This document shows positions 22,111-58,671 of a DNA stretch of 64,000 nt, in pieces; the stretch's first letter is position 1; every line of letters starts with the position of its first letter. A program made the translations under genes and the position numbers. Source of the stretch: Candidatus Poribacteria bacterium (lineage in GTDB: Bacteria > Poribacteria > WGA-4E > WGA-3G); contig OZ251518.1 in the NCBI GenBank assembly GCA_965242965.1, positions 3,648,001 to 3,712,000 of the forward strand, written 5' to 3'. The notes under the pieces were generated by a model. The model searched no databases. It was not told where the DNA came from and saw nothing but the letters and a program-made list of their open reading frames with translations.

Positions 22111-22235
22111 TTGACATACTCCCTCCGCCTAAAGACGGGGGATTCTGAAGTCTCGCCGCGCTAGGCGCAACTGCAGCAGGTGCAGGCGATAGCCTGTCTG
22201 ACACTGCCTAATTCATGGGTAGATGCCCCTACCCG
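22111..22235 (-). ncRNA. omega-RNA (reRNA) scaffold 3' part, overlapping the tnpB 3' end; guide would be the flank below 22111
   Basis: GGGGCATC...GTGTCAGAC...GAATCCCC...GGGAGTATGTCAA; position as established for TnpB systems; 5' boundary uncertain. Confidence 0.65.
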
Positions 22236-23336
22236 AACAATGTTTATCGCGGCGTTCATATCACGTTCATGATGACGCTGACACCGCGGGCATGTCCACG
22301 TTCTGTCGCGCAGCGTGATAGCGTCATTGACATAGCCGCAGCCGTGACACGTCTTCGTGCTTGGATACCACCTATCGATGCAAGCAACGTTTTTACCACA
22401 CTTGCGCGCCACCTGTCGGATGATAGAAAGGAACTTACTGAAAGCCAAGTCTGAAACCTTCCGTCCCCAGAGTTTTTTCATGGCGGCGATGTTCAGATCT
22501 TCAAAGAAATTCCAATCAAACTGCTCTACAAGATAACGCGCCAGTTTCCAAAAATAGTCTTCACGCTGCCGTGCTATCTTTCGGTGTGTCCGTGCTAATT
22601 CTATCCGCCGTTGATGCCGATGATTACTGCCAACTTCAGAACGGGAGAACCGTCGATTTGCACGTGCAATTGCATTGAGTGAACGTCGAAAGAATTCGGG
22701 GGCTTGTTCTCTCGTTCCATTGCTGGATGTCAGGAATGTTTTGAGTCCAAAGTCATGCCCTGCCGCATTACCAGTCTTGGGCATGAACTCGGTGTATTCC
22801 GCATCTGTGAGAATGGAAATGAACCAGTCACCGACTTTATCTTGTTTCACCGTGACACGTTGCACCTCGCCGACTACCGGGCGAGACAGCCAGAACTTAT
22901 ACCAGCGACCGTTAATACGGATTTTCGCAACGGGACAGCCACCGGGCTTCTTCTTTTCGTAGTCTTCTATCTTGCACTGTCCCGATGAAAATGTCATGGA
23001 CTGCATCTGATAGCGTTTCTTGAACCGCGACGGACGTTTCGCCACTTTCTTGAAGAACCGTTGATACGCCTTGTGAATTCTGTCTATAGACTCCTGGAGC
23101 GTCCAGGAGAAGGGCTGCCGCCACCTGGCGTATTTCGGGAGCCGTTTGAGTTTCGTGAGGTGCTTGCATAACCGATTTCGGCTCGGATGTCTGTAGTCCT
23201 CGCGTTGTCCATACATCCGATAGTGCCGCCGAATCAAGGCGACAAAATGGTTATGCACATGGCAGAGGATATCCAAGTCGCTGCGCAAACGCCACAGCTG
23301 CTTCGGTTGTTGCAATTTATATTTCAGTGTATACAT
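22161..23336 (-). CDS. tnpB: RNA-guided endonuclease TnpB
   Basis: RuvC triad GHDFGLK / FFEDLN / RDMNAAINI and zinc finger CHGC..CPRC; start chosen at MYTLKYKL. Confidence 0.93.
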   Translation of the reverse strand: MYTLKYKLQQPKQLWRLRSDLDILCHVHNHFVALIRRHYRMYGQREDYRHPSRNRLCKHLTKLKRLPKYARWRQPFSWTLQESIDRIHKAYQRFFKKVAKRPSRFKKRYQMQSMTFSSGQCKIEDYEKKKPGGCPVAKIRINGRWYKFWLSRPVVGEVQRVTVKQDKVGDWFISILTDAEYTEFMPKTGNAAGHDFGLKTFLTSSNGTREQAPEFFRRSLNAIARANRRFSRSEVGSNHRHQRRIELARTHRKIARQREDYFWKLARYLVEQFDWNFFEDLNIAAMKKLWGRKVSDLAFSKFLSIIRQVARKCGKNVACIDRWYPSTKTCHGCGYVNDAITLRDRTWTCPRCQRHHERDMNAAINIVRVGASTHELGSVRQAIACTCCSCA

Positions 23337-23436
23337 CGTGGTTACCGTATACCGTGCGTTGCCTCGTTTCAAAAGGTGGCGGGTGACGCAGACAGGTTGC
23401 CTGTGTTGAAACACACCCGCCCACACGGTAACACAC

Positions 23437-23465
23437 ATGATATGATATTCCACCTAAAAAGTCAA
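23437..23465 (-). promoter_or_regulatory. Promoter inside the element left end driving tnpB
   Basis: TTGACT-17 nt-TATCAT. Confidence 0.6.
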
Positions 23466-23579
23466 GGTATTAACCCCCAAAGGGGACAAATACCTGAACT
23501 CTTTTTTTGAATTCCCGGCCCCATGAACGTTTTCTACATCCCGCATGCTAAAGCATGGGATTTGAAAACGGGACGTTCG

Positions 23580-25130
23580 TTAAAAATGTTCAATCGGTGC
23601 GCTTTCCTTGAGTTCCCAGACGTAGTGTCCGAATTCAGCGGCACCGTCCGGAGTGCCGTGGAAGATTTCTGCGTCCAATCCCCAAGCCAATTTGTAGGCG
23701 GCGTGGAGTTGTGTCAACGATTTCGTCACCATGCCGTAGCAGAGGAGTGCGACGGTGCCGCCGCCCCCGCCGCCGGTAATTTTGGCACCGTAGATGCCGC
23801 CTTCTTCGCCGATTTTTTGCGCGATGCTGACGAGTCCGTCCACTTCCGGCGAACCGAGTCCTGCTAAATCGCGATAACTCGCGTTGGATTCATACATGAG
23901 CGCGCCCGCCTCTCGGAGGTAGGCACGGATGCATTCGGGATGCTTGTCCGCGTTTTTCAGTGCGGCGATGAACCGCTTGACACGATGGTTTTCATAAATC
24001 GGATGTTGCACTCGCCGCCTGATGGGATACATTTTCTCCGCATCCACCTGCGTGACAGTATCCACGGTTGCGCCGTATTTTTCAAGGAACTCCTCGCCGG
24101 GCATCTGCTCGGGCAACAGCGGTTCGCACTGTTCGTGGAATTCCTCAACGGAGAGGTTGCACAGATAGTTCGTCTCTAATTTTAACGCGCGCTGCAAGAT
24201 TGTCAAGCCCATAAATGCAGCGGTGCGCGCGTCAATGTAATCGGTGCTTGTCGTGCTGCGCGGTGCTTTCGTATTCACACCGACAAACTTGGCATAGAAC
24301 GGCTTTGACACTCTTTCCAGAATTTCATAAGGTGCCTCGGATGTTGAGGACGTAGGCGGTTGACACCGAATCGAGAGCATCTTTCCCATTTTCCCCGAAA
24401 CCGAAGTCACCTGAGCCATGATACCGCACGGCGCGCCGACAATCCGATTTTCGACGATTTGCGCCACCTGGGCGATGTCCCGTTCGCTTAACTGCAGCTC
24501 ATAAAGTTTGTCAATCGCCATCAACGCCGCGACTTCAATCGCCGCCGATGAAGCAATCCCGGCATCTATCGGAATAGTGCTTTTGAGGACAATCGCGGCA
24601 CCGTGCGGAAAACGTTCGATTTTGCCTTCTTTCAGCAGGGCATAGAACCCGCCGAGGATGTAGCCGCTCCATGCGATTTGCGCGTCCTTATTGAAAAGTT
24701 CACGAACTTGTGCGTAGGTTTTGAGTTCGCCTTCGGCATAGAAATCGTCAAGCGAGAGTTGAACGCCCTGTTTCACCCGCTTGTCTCCAAGCAACACGGT
24801 GTTGCCCGTATCGTTTTCAGGTTTAGTCGTCTGATAGAGATACTGGTTTCCGACACCGAGTGTGACTGCGCGGAGGTGTCTATCTTCGCGCGCTTGACAG
24901 GCGGCGATGGCGATGCGTTCCAGCGTCATTTCAAAGACATTTGCACCGCAGTAATCGGCAATGCCGCCCATGATGTCAAGCCGTGCCGGTGCGCGCGTGA
25001 CGATAACCTTCCCACCCTTCTGCAACCCGAATGGCCCGAAGATGTCGGCGGAGTCTTCTTGGATAAGACGTTCCAAGTCGGAAATTTGGAACGGTTTTAC
25101 GTTGGGACCGCGCAGTTGTTCAACTTTCAT
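23580..25130 (-). CDS. GHMP kinase, galactokinase/L-arabinokinase-like (catalytic Asp replaced)
   Basis: RAPARLDIMGGIADY, PIDAGIASSAA, VENRIVGAPCGIMAQ, GAKITGGGGGG. Confidence 0.85.
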   Translation of the reverse strand: MKVEQLRGPNVKPFQISDLERLIQEDSADIFGPFGLQKGGKVIVTRAPARLDIMGGIADYCGANVFEMTLERIAIAACQAREDRHLRAVTLGVGNQYLYQTTKPENDTGNTVLLGDKRVKQGVQLSLDDFYAEGELKTYAQVRELFNKDAQIAWSGYILGGFYALLKEGKIERFPHGAAIVLKSTIPIDAGIASSAAIEVAALMAIDKLYELQLSERDIAQVAQIVENRIVGAPCGIMAQVTSVSGKMGKMLSIRCQPPTSSTSEAPYEILERVSKPFYAKFVGVNTKAPRSTTSTDYIDARTAAFMGLTILQRALKLETNYLCNLSVEEFHEQCEPLLPEQMPGEEFLEKYGATVDTVTQVDAEKMYPIRRRVQHPIYENHRVKRFIAALKNADKHPECIRAYLREAGALMYESNASYRDLAGLGSPEVDGLVSIAQKIGEEGGIYGAKITGGGGGGTVALLCYGMVTKSLTQLHAAYKLAWGLDAEIFHGTPDGAAEFGHYVWELKESAPIEHF

Positions 25131-56003: not shown

Positions 56004-56151
56004 TTTTTCGTAGTGTAGCCAAGCGTTCGGCAGTATTTCGGACGAACGCCGGTGCCTCCTTCGTTAAGTTTGGCATTGAAGGGCTCTAACGAACTGTGCT
56101 GCTCAGAGACTTCCAATGCCGTGCGATGAAAGTTGCGTGGGGATGCGCGGT

Positions 56152-56364
56152 TTAATTCAGCGCGCTAATAATCGATGCGACCGCGCCTGCCAGTGCTCCT
56201 ACGCCGAGCAGTGCCGCGAGCCCGCCGAAAATGTAGTTGAGCCGTTTTTCAACGGCGGACAGACGTTCCTCAATCTTGTCAACGCGCGCGTTGAGATTAC
56301 CGACATCTGTCTTGAGTTCGTCCAATTTCTGTAGTGCTCGTTTTTGGAATTCTTCGTTCGTCAT
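56152..56364 (-). CDS. Small coiled-coil protein with C-terminal TM helix, copy 1 (70 aa)
   Basis: AAGGAGG RBS; MTNEEFQK..IEERL..YIFGGLAALLGVGALAGAVASIISALN. Confidence 0.75.
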   Translation of the reverse strand: MTNEEFQKRALQKLDELKTDVGNLNARVDKIEERLSAVEKRLNYIFGGLAALLGVGALAGAVASIISALN

Positions 56365-56412
56365 TGCCGAGGCCTCCTTTGCCATGAAAGTTGCGTGGTG
56401 CCGATGCGCGGG

Positions 56413-56604
56413 TTAATTCAGCGCGCTAATAATCGATGCGACTGCGCCTGCCAGTGCCCCTACGCCGAGCAGTGCGGCGAGCCCGCCGAAAATGTAGTTG
56501 AGCCGCTTTTCAACGGAGGACAGACGTTCCTCAATCTTGTCAACGCACGTGTTGAGTTCGTCCAATTTCTGTAGCACCTGTTTTTGGAATTCTTCGTTCG
56601 TCAT
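56413..56604 (-). CDS. Small coiled-coil protein with C-terminal TM helix, copy 2 (63 aa)
   Basis: AAGGAGG RBS; near-identical tandem paralogue. Confidence 0.75.
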   Translation of the reverse strand: MTNEEFQKQVLQKLDELNTCVDKIEERLSSVEKRLNYIFGGLAALLGVGALAGAVASIISALN

Positions 56605-56669
56605 TTGTTTCGTATCCTCCTTAAGTGTTGATTTCAGTGTTTGCAAGGCGCGCTGCAAATGGACTCCTC

Positions 56670-56963
56670 TCTGTAGTTTGTGATCGCCTGATCACAAACA
56701 GGTAAGGAGCAGGTGCTCCTTACCTACAGGGCCCGGCGAGCGAGCGATGGCGGGGCCTGTCCCTCGCCCTACGATGACATGCCGTTTTTTCCCGTAGCGC
56801 GGGGGCCTGTCCCCCGCGATTGTTGGATTGCGCGAGGCATGGCGAGGGACAGGCCCTCGCCCTACGATGAAGGGGGGGTTCTGCCGCCGCGGCCCCGGGA
56901 GGCGCGCCGCTCTATTGCATCGAGACCAGGAGAGCTCTCCTACACAGATTTATGAAACCCCCT
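56670..56963. repeat. REP cluster ending in the terminal repeat
   Basis: GTAG hairpins; TTATGAAACCCCCT at 56950. Confidence 0.8.
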
Positions 56964-57000
56964 GCAAACCAATATATCTATTAAAACATATTATGCAAGG

Positions 57001-57356
57001 TTGACATACTCCCTACACGCTAAAGACGGCTGGCACATGTGCCAGACCTCGTGGGGATTCAATGGTGTCGGTATCCCGTTGCTTTGTGTGGAATTCTGCG
57101 ATGTGTGCGACCGACCGCACGCGTGAGATGCATGGTTACCCGCGTCTGACACTCACTCTCACACTAGACTGATGCCCCGCCTAGATGATGGGTGGTAGAT
57201 AACCGAACAATGCAGCATAACCCGACTTTCGCCCGGTCATCTACCGTCGGTGTTTTACAGGGTCTCACCTGCAACCCGCCAACGCCTCTTTCCACAGAGA
57301 CAGATAGGCACCGCGACTTGGATTGCCGCGGGTGGAAACGCCTATCCAGCAGGTTA
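57001..57356 (-). ncRNA. Putative structured omega-RNA-like transcript
   Basis: Downstream of an internal promoter; nested stems; 3' part shares GGGGCATC, GTGTCAGAC, GAATCCCC and GGGAGTATGTCAA with the tnpB scaffold. Confidence 0.55.
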
Positions 57357-57361
57357 CAGAT

Positions 57362-57390
57362 AGTATACCACATTTCTTTTTGCAATGCAA
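57362..57390 (-). promoter_or_regulatory. Internal promoter of the mini-element
   Basis: TTGCAT-17 nt-TATACT with TGn extended -10. Confidence 0.6.
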
Positions 57391-57520
57391 GTCTTTTTTT
57401 TCATTCTATACCGTTAGCGATGTCTACATCCCGCAGTCTGAAGACTAGGGATTTGACATCGAAGATGTGGTTAATGCAAGGAAATTTTTATGCATCGCGG
57501 TATTGTGGCGATAAAAAAAC

Positions 57521-57549
57521 TTGACACGTTAAATTTTTTGCGGTATACT
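57521..57549 (+). promoter_or_regulatory. Promoter of the PIN TA operon
   Basis: TTGACA-17 nt-TATACT. Confidence 0.65.
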
Positions 57550-57651
57550 GAATGGATAAACGGGACAGGCCCCGCGCTACGGTTATTTTGTCGTTCGGGT
57601 TTGCCTGATGCCGGATGGAAACAAGAGAAAAAAGATAACGGAGGACAAACC

Positions 57652-57906
57652 ATGCCAACGGTTGCACTGACAACCCAACAGATTATCGGATGCATCCAGC
57701 AGATGTCACCCGAAGAACGATTCAAGGCACTGCGGGTGCTTGCTAGAAGCACACCCAAAGCACGCGAATTGCAAATGAAACACTCTGAACCTAGCATCCG
57801 TCAGGAGTGCGCGCAGCGCGGACTGGATTGGGACGCGATGGACGATGAAGAGCGGCTCGATTTTATTAACGACATCATCCATGAGGACCGCGCATGCCCC
57901 CCATAG
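57652..57906 (+). CDS. Putative antitoxin (84 aa)
   Basis: GGAGG RBS; RGLDWDAMDDEERLDFINDIIHE; overlaps the PIN gene. Confidence 0.7.
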   Translation: MPTVALTTQQIIGCIQQMSPEERFKALRVLARSTPKARELQMKHSEPSIRQECAQRGLDWDAMDDEERLDFINDIIHEDRACPP

Positions 57907-58298
57907 TCGTCTACGATACCAACGTGCTCTTCTCTTGGACACGCTGGCGGGGCACGCCTTACCGATGTGTTGAACTCGCGCGGCACGGCATCGTCGTGGG
58001 ACTGATTTGTGATGAACTCCTGGATGAGCTCGTCGGCGTGCTCGCCCGCAGGAAATACCCCATCACAGAAATTCTCAGCAAACAAGAAGATCTTGTCACT
58101 TTCCTCAAGTTCGTTGAGATTCCTCGTCAGCTCCATGGAGTCTGTGCCGATCCCGATGACGACATGGTGATTGAATGCGCTGTCGTCGGTGGGGCAACCC
58201 ACCTCATCACCGGTGACACAAAGCACCTGTTACCTCTTCAACGTTATCAGGGGGTACTCATCGTGTCGCCCGCCGAGTTCATTGAGCAGTTCCCCTAA
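57894..58298 (+). CDS. PIN-domain toxin (VapC-like)
   Basis: VVYDTNVL, DPDDDMVIECA, LITGDTKHLL, IVSPAEF. Confidence 0.9.
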   Translation: MPPIVVYDTNVLFSWTRWRGTPYRCVELARHGIVVGLICDELLDELVGVLARRKYPITEILSKQEDLVTFLKFVEIPRQLHGVCADPDDDMVIECAVVGGATHLITGDTKHLLPLQRYQGVLIVSPAEFIEQFP

Positions 58299-58671
58299 CC
58301 AGTCCCGCGTTTTTTATCGGGAAGGCGAACGGGTTTCCCTATAGAGGGATGCGCGTCACAGAAAGATCGCGGGGGACAGGCCCCCGCGCTACGGTGATAG
58401 GTGGCGTTTTCAGTTCGCGGGGGACAGGCCCCCGCGCTCCGGTGATGGATGGCGGCTCCAATTCCCGCGCGACGTTAGCCGCGATGCAAAATTTGTCACA
58501 AATTTTTAACTGTTTCTCAAAACAATCGTAACATTTAAACGGTAAAGTCCATTACGAACGAATTTGGAGAACGCAAATGCCGCGCTATTGCAGCGCGCAG
58601 GATGACACAACACTTCAACACGGAGGAACTAGTTCGGTGGAAAACCGATTCCTCCACTACGGAGAAGAAAG

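What the first reader, a model, noticed from the sequence alone, without database searches (positions are those of the whole stretch)
57001..57470. Protein-free, self-promoted omega-RNA mini-element matching the tnpB element 35 kb away
Seen: this 470-bp segment has the same right end (GAATCCCC..CGTCTTTAG..AGGGAGTATGTCAA) and left end (TCAAATCCC-hairpin-GCGGGATGTAGA) as 22111-23579. In both, TTAA lies exactly 14 nt outside TCAAATCCC. In place of tnpB it has a TTGCAT-17-TATACT promoter and about 360 nt of nested stems (CTGTAACCTGCTG/TGGCGGGTTGCAG, GATAGGC/GCCTATC, GGTAGATGACCGGGC/GTTCGGTTATCTACC) leading into scaffold motifs GGGGCATC and GTGTCAGAC. The left-end hairpin differs in sequence but still pairs, which suggests selection on structure rather than decay. 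Established: TnpB uses an omega-RNA from the right end, with the flank as guide. Inference: an RNA-only parasite or trans-acting guide donor that loads TnpB from another locus, with guide CCTTGCATAATATGTTTT and an extra 5' RNA domain.
Basis: partly seen in the sequence, partly recalled or inferred. Interest (0 to 1): 0.85.

Follow-up and report, generated by a model that had tools for sequence, protein, structure and literature searches.

The report
Protein-free TnpB guide-RNA mini-transposon
A 470-base mobile element has lost its nuclease gene but keeps its promoter, a folded leader RNA and the guide-RNA scaffold; elements of this kind are known, but the leader fold matches no described RNA family.

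Summary
Window 57001-57470 (minus strand) is a discrete 470-nt element. It follows TTAA and ends in GTATGTCAA. Its end hairpins match the tnpB element at 22111-23579.

It is a non-autonomous IS200/IS605 derivative: a PATE, or "standalone omega-RNA". Its order is left end, promoter, about 113-nt leader, long hairpin, about 190-nt omega-RNA-like scaffold, right end.

- **Copies:** the genome holds 3 full copies and 1 truncated copy, each with different flanks. A sister species holds more than 10.
- **Scaffold:** a covariance model built only from the mini-elements' 3' halves finds the 3' ends of all four tnpB genes in the genome. In relatives it matched tnpB at 23 of 28 best loci.
- **Leader:** it is not an add-on "in place of tnpB". 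The tnpB genes carry the same promoter-plus-leader architecture. The fold includes a 7-bp loop-loop pairing kept in 42 of 43 copies, in about 20 sequence versions. It occurs in 73 of 112 genomes of this family, probably Poribacteria, and has no Rfam match.

Trans use of such RNAs by TnpB is already published. Expression, TnpB binding and the partner TnpB remain untested here. The guide matches only the element's own flank, which fits homing rather than trans targeting. I rate it a new variant of a known kind, of moderate interest.

The parts
57471..57474 (-). TTAA target site, expected to serve also as the TnpB TAM, directly 5' of the left end
   Evidence: All 3 full copies in the genome follow TTAA. 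So do 3 of the same left-end type in the sister species G001.
57001..57470 (-). Whole mini-element (copy A), 470 nt, no conserved ORF
   Evidence: A contig joint 56998->57470 that skips 471 nt appears in runs X1 and X3. Its sides are only 25-26 nt, so it is a weak hint of an empty-site allele.
57423..57456 (-). Left-end subterminal hairpin (TCAAATCCC ... GGGATGTAGA)
   Evidence: 82.4% over 34 nt to the tnpB element's left end. The stem sequence differs but still pairs.
57362..57390 (-). Internal promoter TTGCAT-17-TATACT with TG-extended -10
   Evidence: Read and not flagged by the scan. A promoter-like site sits at the same place in 33 of 43 related leaders, against 1 of 43 control stretches.
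57248..57360 (-). Leader RNA domain: stems P1-P4, loop-loop pairing (57332-57338 with 57289-57295), and hairpin P5 (57255-57274) with loop UGAGAC, followed by AAAACA
   Evidence: Model R1 scores it 115 bits. Nested pairs are 86.7% paired against 71.7% in shuffles, and 28 of 32 pairs show double changes. The loop-loop helix is kept in 42 of 43 copies. P5 is 84.3% paired.
57194..57245 (-). Long hairpin GGTAGATGACC...GGTTATCTACC between the leader and the scaffold
   Evidence: Predicted in the MFE fold. It shows compensatory changes in copy C and in G001 copies. It is absent from one G001 copy, L002.
57001..57192 (-). Omega-RNA-like scaffold: stem-loop S1 with loop GGGGCAUC (57164-57184), GUGUCAGAC, inner stems, a pseudoknot-like GGUCGG/ACCGAC pairing, and the right-end hairpin ending GUAUGUCAA
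   Evidence: Model R2 scores it 149.4 bits. The structure is 95.2% paired against 82.5% in shuffles, and 15 of 38 pairs show double changes. The same model finds tnpB 3' ends.
57026..57049 (-). 24-nt insertion with a perfect 16-nt palindrome inside the right-end hairpin, present only in copy A
   Evidence: Alignment of copies. The palindrome occurs exactly once in the window, and no other exact copy of its 16-nt core (offset by one base) was found in the genome.
56983..57000 (-). Flank that would form the guide (CCTTGCATAATATGTTTT)
   Evidence: Position relative to the right end. Its first 16 nt match only this site in the genome at one mismatch or fewer. The guide role is inferred.
22111..23579 (-). 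tnpB-only element with the same end type: tnpB 22161-23336, omega-RNA region 22111-22244, leader about 23325-23434, TTAA at 23580-23583
   Evidence: Pfam OrfB_IS605 plus Cas12f1-like_TNB. Matches PDB ISDra2 TnpB at E 4.7e-38. R2 scores 60.5 bits. R1 scores 14.1 bits, E 0.009.

Best explanation
Window 57001-57470 (minus strand) is a non-autonomous, protein-free member of the IS200/IS605 family. It is a PATE, or 'standalone omega-RNA' element, related to a tnpB-only transposon that has lost the nuclease ORF.

What it keeps, in order:
1. the left-end hairpin;
2. an internal sigma-70-type promoter;
3. a roughly 113-nt leader that folds into four stems plus a loop-loop (kissing) pairing and a further hairpin;
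4. a long hairpin;
5. a roughly 190-nt omega-RNA scaffold that ends at the right-end hairpin.

Inferred mechanism. The promoter drives a transcript of about 355 nt plus flank. A resident TnpB binds the scaffold, and may trim it to the mature 3' part. The 16-20 nt of flank then serve as guide. If a TnpA excises the element, the rejoined site (TTAA plus CCTTGCATAATATG...) matches TAM plus guide. TnpB cuts it, and repair from the sister copy restores the element. This is the published homing model.

Leader function. The most likely role is a 5' expression or stability module shared with tnpB mRNAs, but its function is unknown.

Shown here: the anatomy, the copies, the homology of the 3' half to tnpB-linked scaffolds, and selection on RNA structure.

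Inferred: transcription, TnpB loading, homing and the leader's role. Identity of the element is about 0.9. Use of its RNA by a TnpB in trans is about 0.5-0.6.
For: Copies.
- The genome holds 3 full copies and 1 truncated copy (83-93% identity) with unrelated flanks. All full copies follow TTAA and end in GTATGTCAA.
- The sister species G001 gave 11 leader matches and 16 scaffold matches, 13 of them scoring 93-190 bits.

Not coding.
- Copy A's frame is stopped in copies B and C.
- None of the 30 best leader loci carries a full tnpB. Two of the 30 keep a 25-41-residue C-terminal TnpB relic inside the element.

The 3' half is an omega-RNA scaffold.
- Model R2 was built from 12 mini copies only. 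In the own genome it hits the 3' ends of all four tnpB genes at 63.1, 60.5, 22.7 and 22.0 bits.
- In relatives, 23 of 28 best non-mini loci have tnpB matched at the hit. In the 17 loci with a full-length match, the match ends about 65 nt inside the hit.
- Structure: 95.2% of cells paired against 82.5% in shuffles (0 of 500 reach it) and 28-50% with partners slid. 15 of 38 pairs show double changes.
- The S1 loop GGCAUC can pair with the terminal GAGUAUGUC in 12 of 12 copies.

Leader.
- 43 copies are 86.7% paired against 71.7% in shuffles and 32-43% slid. 28 of 32 pairs show double changes.
- The loop-loop helix was not part of the model. It has at least 6 bp in 42 of 43 copies and at least 7 bp in 40 of 43, in about 20 sequence versions. 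Own pairs average 6.84 bp against 4.00 bp for swapped partners.
- Frequent G-U pairs put the fold on the transcribed strand.

Promoter-like site directly upstream in 33 of 43 copies, against 1 of 43 controls.

Same architecture upstream of tnpB. R1 places window 23325-23434 at E 0.009. It sits just before the start codon in 12 of 18 tnpB loci, at 13-26 bits.

The window's TnpB looks intact.

Published precedent for trans use.
Against: - No transcript data.
- In copy A the -35 matches only 3 of 6 positions, and the scan did not flag the promoter.
- Copy A alone has a 24-nt insertion in the right-end hairpin and a mismatch in the GCGG/CCAU stem. It has the lowest R2 score of the four copies: 149.4 against 157.6-173.5 bits. 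This copy may be impaired.
- The scaffold is far from that of any resident tnpB: 60-63 bits against 149-190 among minis. Cross-loading is uncertain.
- The only IS605-type tnpA with a matching left end in this genome is broken. It has two in-frame TGA codons and lacks its N-terminus. The elements may now be immobile.
- Alignments A4 and A3 are fitted to, or derived from, the tested structures, which inflates the paired percentages.
- The sequences are related, so shuffles overstate significance.
Confidence: 0.72

Rival explanations
1. Dead relic. The family was once active, but copy A (or all copies in this genome) is now a decaying, untranscribed remnant with no function.
For: - The matching tnpA is broken.
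- Copy A has a 24-nt insertion in its right-end hairpin and a stem mismatch.
- Its -35 is weak and was not flagged.
- Two very short remnants, a promoter and truncated leader fused to a right end, lie elsewhere in the genome.
- No RNA data are available.
Against: - Compensatory changes occur between copies within this genome, and between it and G001, in nearly every stem.
- The structure and promoter are kept over several genera.
- A presence/absence joint for copy A in two runs hints at recent change (weak).
Confidence: 0.15
2. The leader RNA is the real cargo. The element spreads a small structured RNA with a cellular or selfish role unrelated to TnpB, and the 3' scaffold serves only as a transposition end.
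For: - The leader is kept in protein-free elements whose 3' parts differ.
- It reaches at least 34 copies in one genome.
- It has a conserved tertiary pairing and a conserved loop UGAGAC.
- No Rfam family explains it.
Against: - The same architecture sits in the tnpB 5' UTR.
- The 3' scaffold itself covaries well beyond the end hairpin that TnpA would need.
Confidence: 0.1
3. A trans-acting guide that directs a TnpB, or a nuclease-dead relative, to another genomic or foreign target for regulation or defence.
For: Standalone omega-RNAs are said to allow targeting of additional sites (passage read).
Against: For copies A, B and D, the 16-nt guide matches only its own flank at one mismatch or fewer. 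Copy C's single extra match follows AGTCAA, not TTAA. Foreign targets were not searched.
Confidence: 0.03

Closest known systems
PATEs (palindrome-associated transposable elements) of IS200/IS605 type; Dyall-Smith et al. 2011, PMC3119063 (passages read)
   Same: No terminal inverted repeats. Near-terminal palindromes like those of IS605-type elements. No target duplication. Too short to encode a transposase. Some arise by deletion of the core of tnpB (IS1341-type) elements. Other small repeats insert into them, including into the near-terminal palindromes.
   Different: The haloarchaeal PATEs were described before omega-RNA was known, and as fused ends. The passages read describe no internal promoter or leader fold.
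Standalone omega-RNAs and PATE-encoded omega-RNAs; Altae-Tran 2021 as cited in PMC10691335 (passage read); Meers et al. preprint 10.1101/2023.03.14.532601 (passages read)
   Same: Mobilised, effector-less elements that carry an omega-RNA, in genomes that also hold effector-containing loci. They were stated to work in trans with compatible effectors.
   Different: Here the element also keeps its own promoter and a conserved pseudoknotted 5' leader shared with tnpB 5' UTRs. I found no mention of such a domain. Supplements were closed and may hold more.
tnpB-only (IS1341-type) IS200/IS605 elements such as ISDra2 TnpB with its omega-RNA (PDB 8exa, 8h1j)
   Same: The omega-RNA overlaps the 3' end of tnpB and runs to the right end, with the flank as guide. 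Subterminal hairpins and a tetranucleotide target are present. A right end finishing in TCAA 10 nt after the hairpin resembles IS608 (recalled, not from a call).
   Different: There is no tnpB. Scaffold sequences are not alignable by eye to ISDra2. The TAM would be TTAA.
IStrons (group I intron plus tnpB); preprint 10.1101/2023.11.20.567912 (passages read)
   Same: A large structured RNA domain at the 5' side of a tnpB element and an omega-RNA at the 3' side. ORF-less PATE versions exist.
   Different: No group I intron or any ribozyme family was found at E up to 10. The element has its own promoter. Its boundaries (A before, A at the end) do not fit the group I splice-site rules as I recall them.
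Rfam IS605-orfB-I (RF03065; named in PMC11701678)
   Same: A structured RNA motif linked to IS605 orfB/tnpB.
   Different: No match in the window at gathering score, nor at E up to 10 in either element.

Membership tests
PATE / non-autonomous IS200/IS605 element | Palindromes close to both termini, related to those of IS605-type elements | tested here: met
   Left and right hairpins were read. They are 82-90% identical to the ends of the tnpB element and of a second tnpB element.
PATE / non-autonomous IS200/IS605 element | No terminal inverted repeats and no target-site duplication | tested here: met
   The ends read CCACATC... and ...GTATGTCAA. The flanks are TTAA on one side and CCTT, CAAT or AATA on the other in copies A, B and C.
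PATE / non-autonomous IS200/IS605 element | Insertion 3' of a fixed short oligonucleotide | tested here: met
   TTAA precedes 3 of 3 full copies here and 3 G001 copies of the same left-end type. A second left-end type follows TTAT, with its boundary inferred.
PATE / non-autonomous IS200/IS605 element | Too short to encode a transposase; no coding capacity | tested here: met
   470 nt. The longest ORFs are 73 and 110 aa. The frame shared with the TnpB C-terminus is stopped in copies B and C.
PATE / non-autonomous IS200/IS605 element | Mobilised in trans by a Y1 TnpA | not testable with these tools
   The only IS605-type tnpA with a matching left end is broken. The other Y1 protein looks REP-associated. 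The joint in reads is only a hint.
TnpB omega-RNA | Homologous to the RNA region that overlaps the 3' end of tnpB and ends at the right end | tested here: met
   R2, built from minis only, hits the 3' ends of the genome's four tnpB genes. It also matched tnpB at 23 of 28 loci in relatives.
TnpB omega-RNA | Conserved secondary structure, with pairing between an internal loop and the 3' terminal segment | tested here: met
   Covariation was found in 6 of 8 helices. The loop/3'-end pairing is present in 12 of 12 copies but nearly invariant, so it is supported by conservation only. The status of this pairing as a hallmark of omega-RNAs is partly recalled; PK-1/PK-2 are mentioned.
TnpB omega-RNA | Transcribed, bound by TnpB, and guides cleavage next to the TAM | not testable with these tools
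   No RNA run was listed.
Group I intron / IStron | Group I intron core in the 5' domain | tested here: not met
   No Rfam family matched at E up to 10 in 56950-57520. None matched at gathering score in the window.
Rfam IS605-orfB-I (RF03065) and all other Rfam 15 families | Match to the covariance model | tested here: not met
   The only chance-level hits (E 1.3-7.4) lay in the tnpB element.

The most novel reading that the evidence does not exclude
The promoter-proximal pseudoknotted leader is an undescribed functional RNA module of TnpB systems in this lineage. Protein-free elements keep it under selection because it governs the fate of the guide RNA, through stability, processing or loading onto TnpB, or by competing with tnpB mRNA. 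On this reading the elements are RNA-level hyperparasites that take over a resident TnpB for their own retention, and in some genomes they rival or outnumber the tnpB-linked scaffolds found.
Probability: 0.2. Interest if true: 0.75.

Novelty: new variant of a known kind. Interest (0 to 1): 0.5.

Why it matters
Standalone omega-RNA elements are known but little studied, and their biological role is called unknown in the literature read.

This family offers a clean natural case:
- dozens of diverged copies with strong covariation;
- their own promoter;
- a second, tertiary-structured RNA domain shared with tnpB mRNAs.

If the leader controls guide-RNA supply or tnpB expression, it would be a regulatory layer of OMEGA systems not yet described. 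It could also be a ready-made expression and stability module for compact editors. If it is only a stabilising 5' fold, the finding is an ordinary PATE family in an uncultured phylum.

Tried and rejected
- **RNA evidence.** No RNA holder was listed for the stretch. Contigs of four runs were laid instead. They cannot show transcription.
- **Rfam.** Nothing at gathering score in the window. Nothing at E up to 10 in the mini. Only chance-level hits in the tnpB element. Ribozyme, riboswitch, group I intron and IS605-orfB readings are therefore rejected as far as Rfam 15 reaches.
- **Global MAFFT of mini against the tnpB element** was uninformative and was replaced by blastn.
- **Empty site in the sister species G002.** The whole stretch of about 2.5 kb between leuS and window 58490 is absent there, so no precise empty site could be read.
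- **Decayed tnpB codons in the long hairpin.** Local alignment of the 90 nt upstream of the scaffold against tnpB 3' coding regions is not above shuffles in most pairs. The best z is 2.7, with 4 of 200 shuffles as good. AAAACA(C/U)C resembles the K-H codons before the RuvC-III motif of the second tnpB type. I leave this as a lead only.
- **Switch between P1 and hairpin P5.** The outer P1 pairs are weak and the inner P5 pairs are solid. The two probably coexist, so I dropped the switch idea.
- **Promoter scan.** It did not flag the mini's promoter.
- **Extra guide targets.** None were found.
- **Not done.** None bears on an RNA element.

Full report
**1. The observation**

On the minus strand the segment reads as follows:
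- TTAA at 57471-57474;
- 14 nt, then TCAAATCCC, a hairpin and GGGATGTAGA;
- an A-run, then TTGCAT, 17 nt and TATACT;
- about 355 nt, ending GAATCCCC...CTTTAGCGTGTAGGGAGTATGTCAA at 57001.

The tnpB element at 22111-23579 has the same layout at both ends, with TTAA at 23580-23583, again 14 nt before TCAAATCCC. blastn between the two finds only the ends:
- right end 89.7% over 29 nt, E 1.5e-5;
- left end 82.4% over 34 nt, E 1.8e-4.

**2. It is a repeated, discrete element**

The window is G000:C1:3648001-3712000. The genome holds:
- two more full copies, C1:607382-607829 (93%) and C1:5302726-5303188 (83%);
- one copy with only the 3' 170 nt or so, C1:4347968-4348134.

The flanks are unrelated. 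All full copies follow TTAA and all four end in GTATGTCAA. There is no target duplication.

A 35-codon frame in copy A resembles a TnpB C-terminus, but it is stopped in copies B and C. The conserved thing is therefore not a peptide.

Contigs of two runs from one study join 56998 to 57470, skipping 471 nt. Other contigs of the same runs cover the occupied right junction. With sides of only 25-26 nt, this is no more than a hint that the site is polymorphic.

**3. The 3' half is an omega-RNA scaffold**

I aligned the last 170 nt or so of 12 copies, 4 from this genome and 8 from the same-genus genome G001. The structure is the RNAalifold consensus with stem S1 restored.
- 95.2% of cells are paired, against 82.5% in shuffles (0 of 500 reach it) and 28-50% with partners slid.
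- 15 of 38 pairs show changes on both sides.
- The S1 loop GGCAUC can pair with the terminal GAGUAUGUC in 12 of 12 copies. This pairing barely varies, so it rests on conservation only.

The covariance model R2 made from these minis finds more than the minis.
- In the own genome it scores the four minis at 149-174 bits. It also finds the 3' ends of all four tnpB genes, at 63.1, 60.5, 22.7 and 22.0 bits.
- In the family it hits 74 of 112 genomes at E up to 1e-6.
- I examined 28 of the 30 returned loci and left out the two that are G000 or G001 minis. In 23 of the 28, tnpB is matched at the hit. In the 17 with a full-length match, the match ends about 65 nt inside the hit. Most are relatives of the second tnpB type, at 59-69% identity over full-length matches. 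Five of the 28 have no tnpB.

This is the placement expected of an omega-RNA.

**4. The 5' domain is the tnpB leader, not a novelty added in place of tnpB**

All three tnpB genes found by tblastn are preceded by a promoter and a structured leader that ends at the start codon. The mini's leader has the same plan:
- an outer stem P1;
- stem P2 (GAUAGGC/GCCUAUC);
- a hairpin P3 inside P2's loop;
- a hairpin P4;
- a pairing between the 5' part of P2's loop and P4's loop.

Model R1 was built from 10 minis of six genomes.
- With filters off it places window 23325-23434 at 14.1 bits, E 0.009.
- It falls just upstream of the start codon in 12 of 18 tnpB loci of relatives, at 13-26 bits. The other six gave no hit there.
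- The likeness is weak in sequence but consistent in position and architecture.

**5. The leader is under selection as a structure**

R1 matches 73 of 112 genomes of the family. It gives 34 matches in one genome, all 34 candidates that were scored, so the true count may be higher. It gives 26, 13 and 11 matches in others. A phylum-wide sample gives 63 of 99 in this family, 2 of 26 in one sister family, and 0 of 25 in seven others.

Of the 30 best loci:
- none has a full tnpB after the leader;
- two (L040, L042) keep a 25-41-residue C-terminal TnpB relic inside the element;
- 18 have the left-end motif within 450 nt upstream;
- 17 have a right-end-type hairpin 250-570 nt downstream, often with a different terminal sequence.

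On 43 aligned leaders:
- nested pairs are 86.7% paired, against 71.7% in shuffles and 32-43% slid, and 28 of 32 pairs show double changes;
- this alignment is fitted to the model, which favours the structure;
- the loop-loop helix was not in the model, yet it has at least 6 contiguous pairs in 42 of 43 copies and at least 7 in 40 of 43, in about 20 sequence versions;
- own partners average 6.84 bp, against 4.00 bp for 900 swapped combinations;
- a further hairpin, P5, with loop UGAGAC is 84.3% paired, with one pair split AU 24 and GC 15;
- many G-U pairs place the fold on the transcribed strand.

A promoter-like site lies directly upstream in 33 of 43 copies, against 1 of 43 control stretches. 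The three copies of this genome fail that criterion because their -35 is TTGCAT, 3 of 6 positions. They do carry TG before the -10. The scan tool did not flag copy A's promoter.

**6. Which TnpB, and is the system live?**

- The window's TnpB has the Pfam domains OrfB_IS605 and Cas12f1-like_TNB. It aligns with ISDra2 TnpB at E 4.7e-38, and the three RuvC motifs are visibly kept.
- By scaffold score it is no closer to the mini than the second tnpB, 60.5 against 63.1 bits.
- By target site it is closer. The minis, the window's tnpB element and an IS605-like element at C1:3124157-3125800 follow TTAA. The second tnpB seems to follow TTAT, with its boundary inferred.
- The only tnpA with a matching left end has two in-frame TGA codons and lacks its N-terminal part. 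The other Y1 protein looks REP-associated.
- Copy A alone carries a 24-nt palindromic insertion in the right-end hairpin.
- The 16-nt guides of copies A, B and D match only their own flanks at one mismatch or fewer. Copy C has one extra match, which follows AGTCAA.

**7. Comparison with what is known**

- PATEs were defined as elements without terminal inverted repeats or target duplication, with near-terminal palindromes, too short to encode a transposase. Some arise by core deletion of tnpB elements (PMC3119063, passages).
- Meers et al. state that PATEs often encode omega-RNAs that would need TnpB in trans (preprint, passages).
- PMC10691335 states that standalone omega-RNAs function in trans with compatible effectors and that their biological role is unknown (passage).
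- I did not find a conserved promoter-plus-leader module in such elements or in tnpB 5' UTRs. Rfam was searched. Supplements were closed and could hold such cases.
- The closest TnpB relatives named by a call come from Candidatus Poribacteria MAGs, at 53% identity.

**8. Verdict**

This is a real feature, correctly described. It is a protein-free omega-RNA element, a known kind. It carries an undescribed, strongly covarying 5' leader domain that it shares with the lineage's tnpB genes.

- Identity: about 0.9.
- Trans use by a TnpB for homing: about 0.5-0.6, untested.
- Leader function: open.

Noticed in passing
window 57026-57049: Copy A alone has a 24-nt insertion holding a perfect 16-nt palindrome inside its right-end hairpin. 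Two similar palindromes (GCTGGCACGTGTGCCA followed by GACCTTGCAT) lie at C1:3507550 and C1:3510666. In Haloquadratum, small repeats insert into the near-terminal palindromes of PATEs.
   Followed up: partly
window 56640-56950 and about 58340-58460: Dense REP-like repeats (GGGACAGGCCCCCGCG...) occur with hundreds of matches in two sister genomes and extreme contig depth. A Y1 (RAYT-like) gene lies at C1:3147583-3147918, preceded by repeat-rich sequence.
   Followed up: partly
window 56993-57000 and 57474-57481: The same 8 nt (CCTTGCAT on the minus strand) lie on both sides of copy A, separated from the left end by TTAA. In G001, two copies (L060, L061) are also followed directly by CTTGCA. This may be a preferred context or chance.
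   Followed up: no
G000:C1:2463219-2463358 and C1:1545972-1546080: Two remnants of about 110-140 nt. In each, a promoter and the first 30 nt or so of a leader are fused directly to a right-end hairpin.
   Followed up: partly
G000:C1:3124157-3125800: An IS605-like element after TTAA, with a left end like the window's tnpB element, a broken tnpA and an intact 405-aa tnpB of a different type.
   Followed up: partly
L013, L018, L057, L060, L061 (G001): Another small repeat rich in CAGGATTT/CAAGAT units is inserted into the minis. It sits between the left end and the promoter, or inside the long hairpin. L056, L060 and L061 show no recognisable left-end hairpin upstream of the promoter.
   Followed up: no
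G000:C1:5283080-5284320 (third tnpB): A 367-aa tnpB with the conserved leader. I recognised no left or right end of the family, and the scaffold match is only 22 bits. It may be domesticated or of another end type.
   Followed up: no
window 56004-58490: The whole interval is replaced by about 300 nt in the same-genus genome G002. The interval holds two paralogous 77-81-aa ORFs, the repeats, the mini-element and two small genes at 57652-58298.
   Followed up: no
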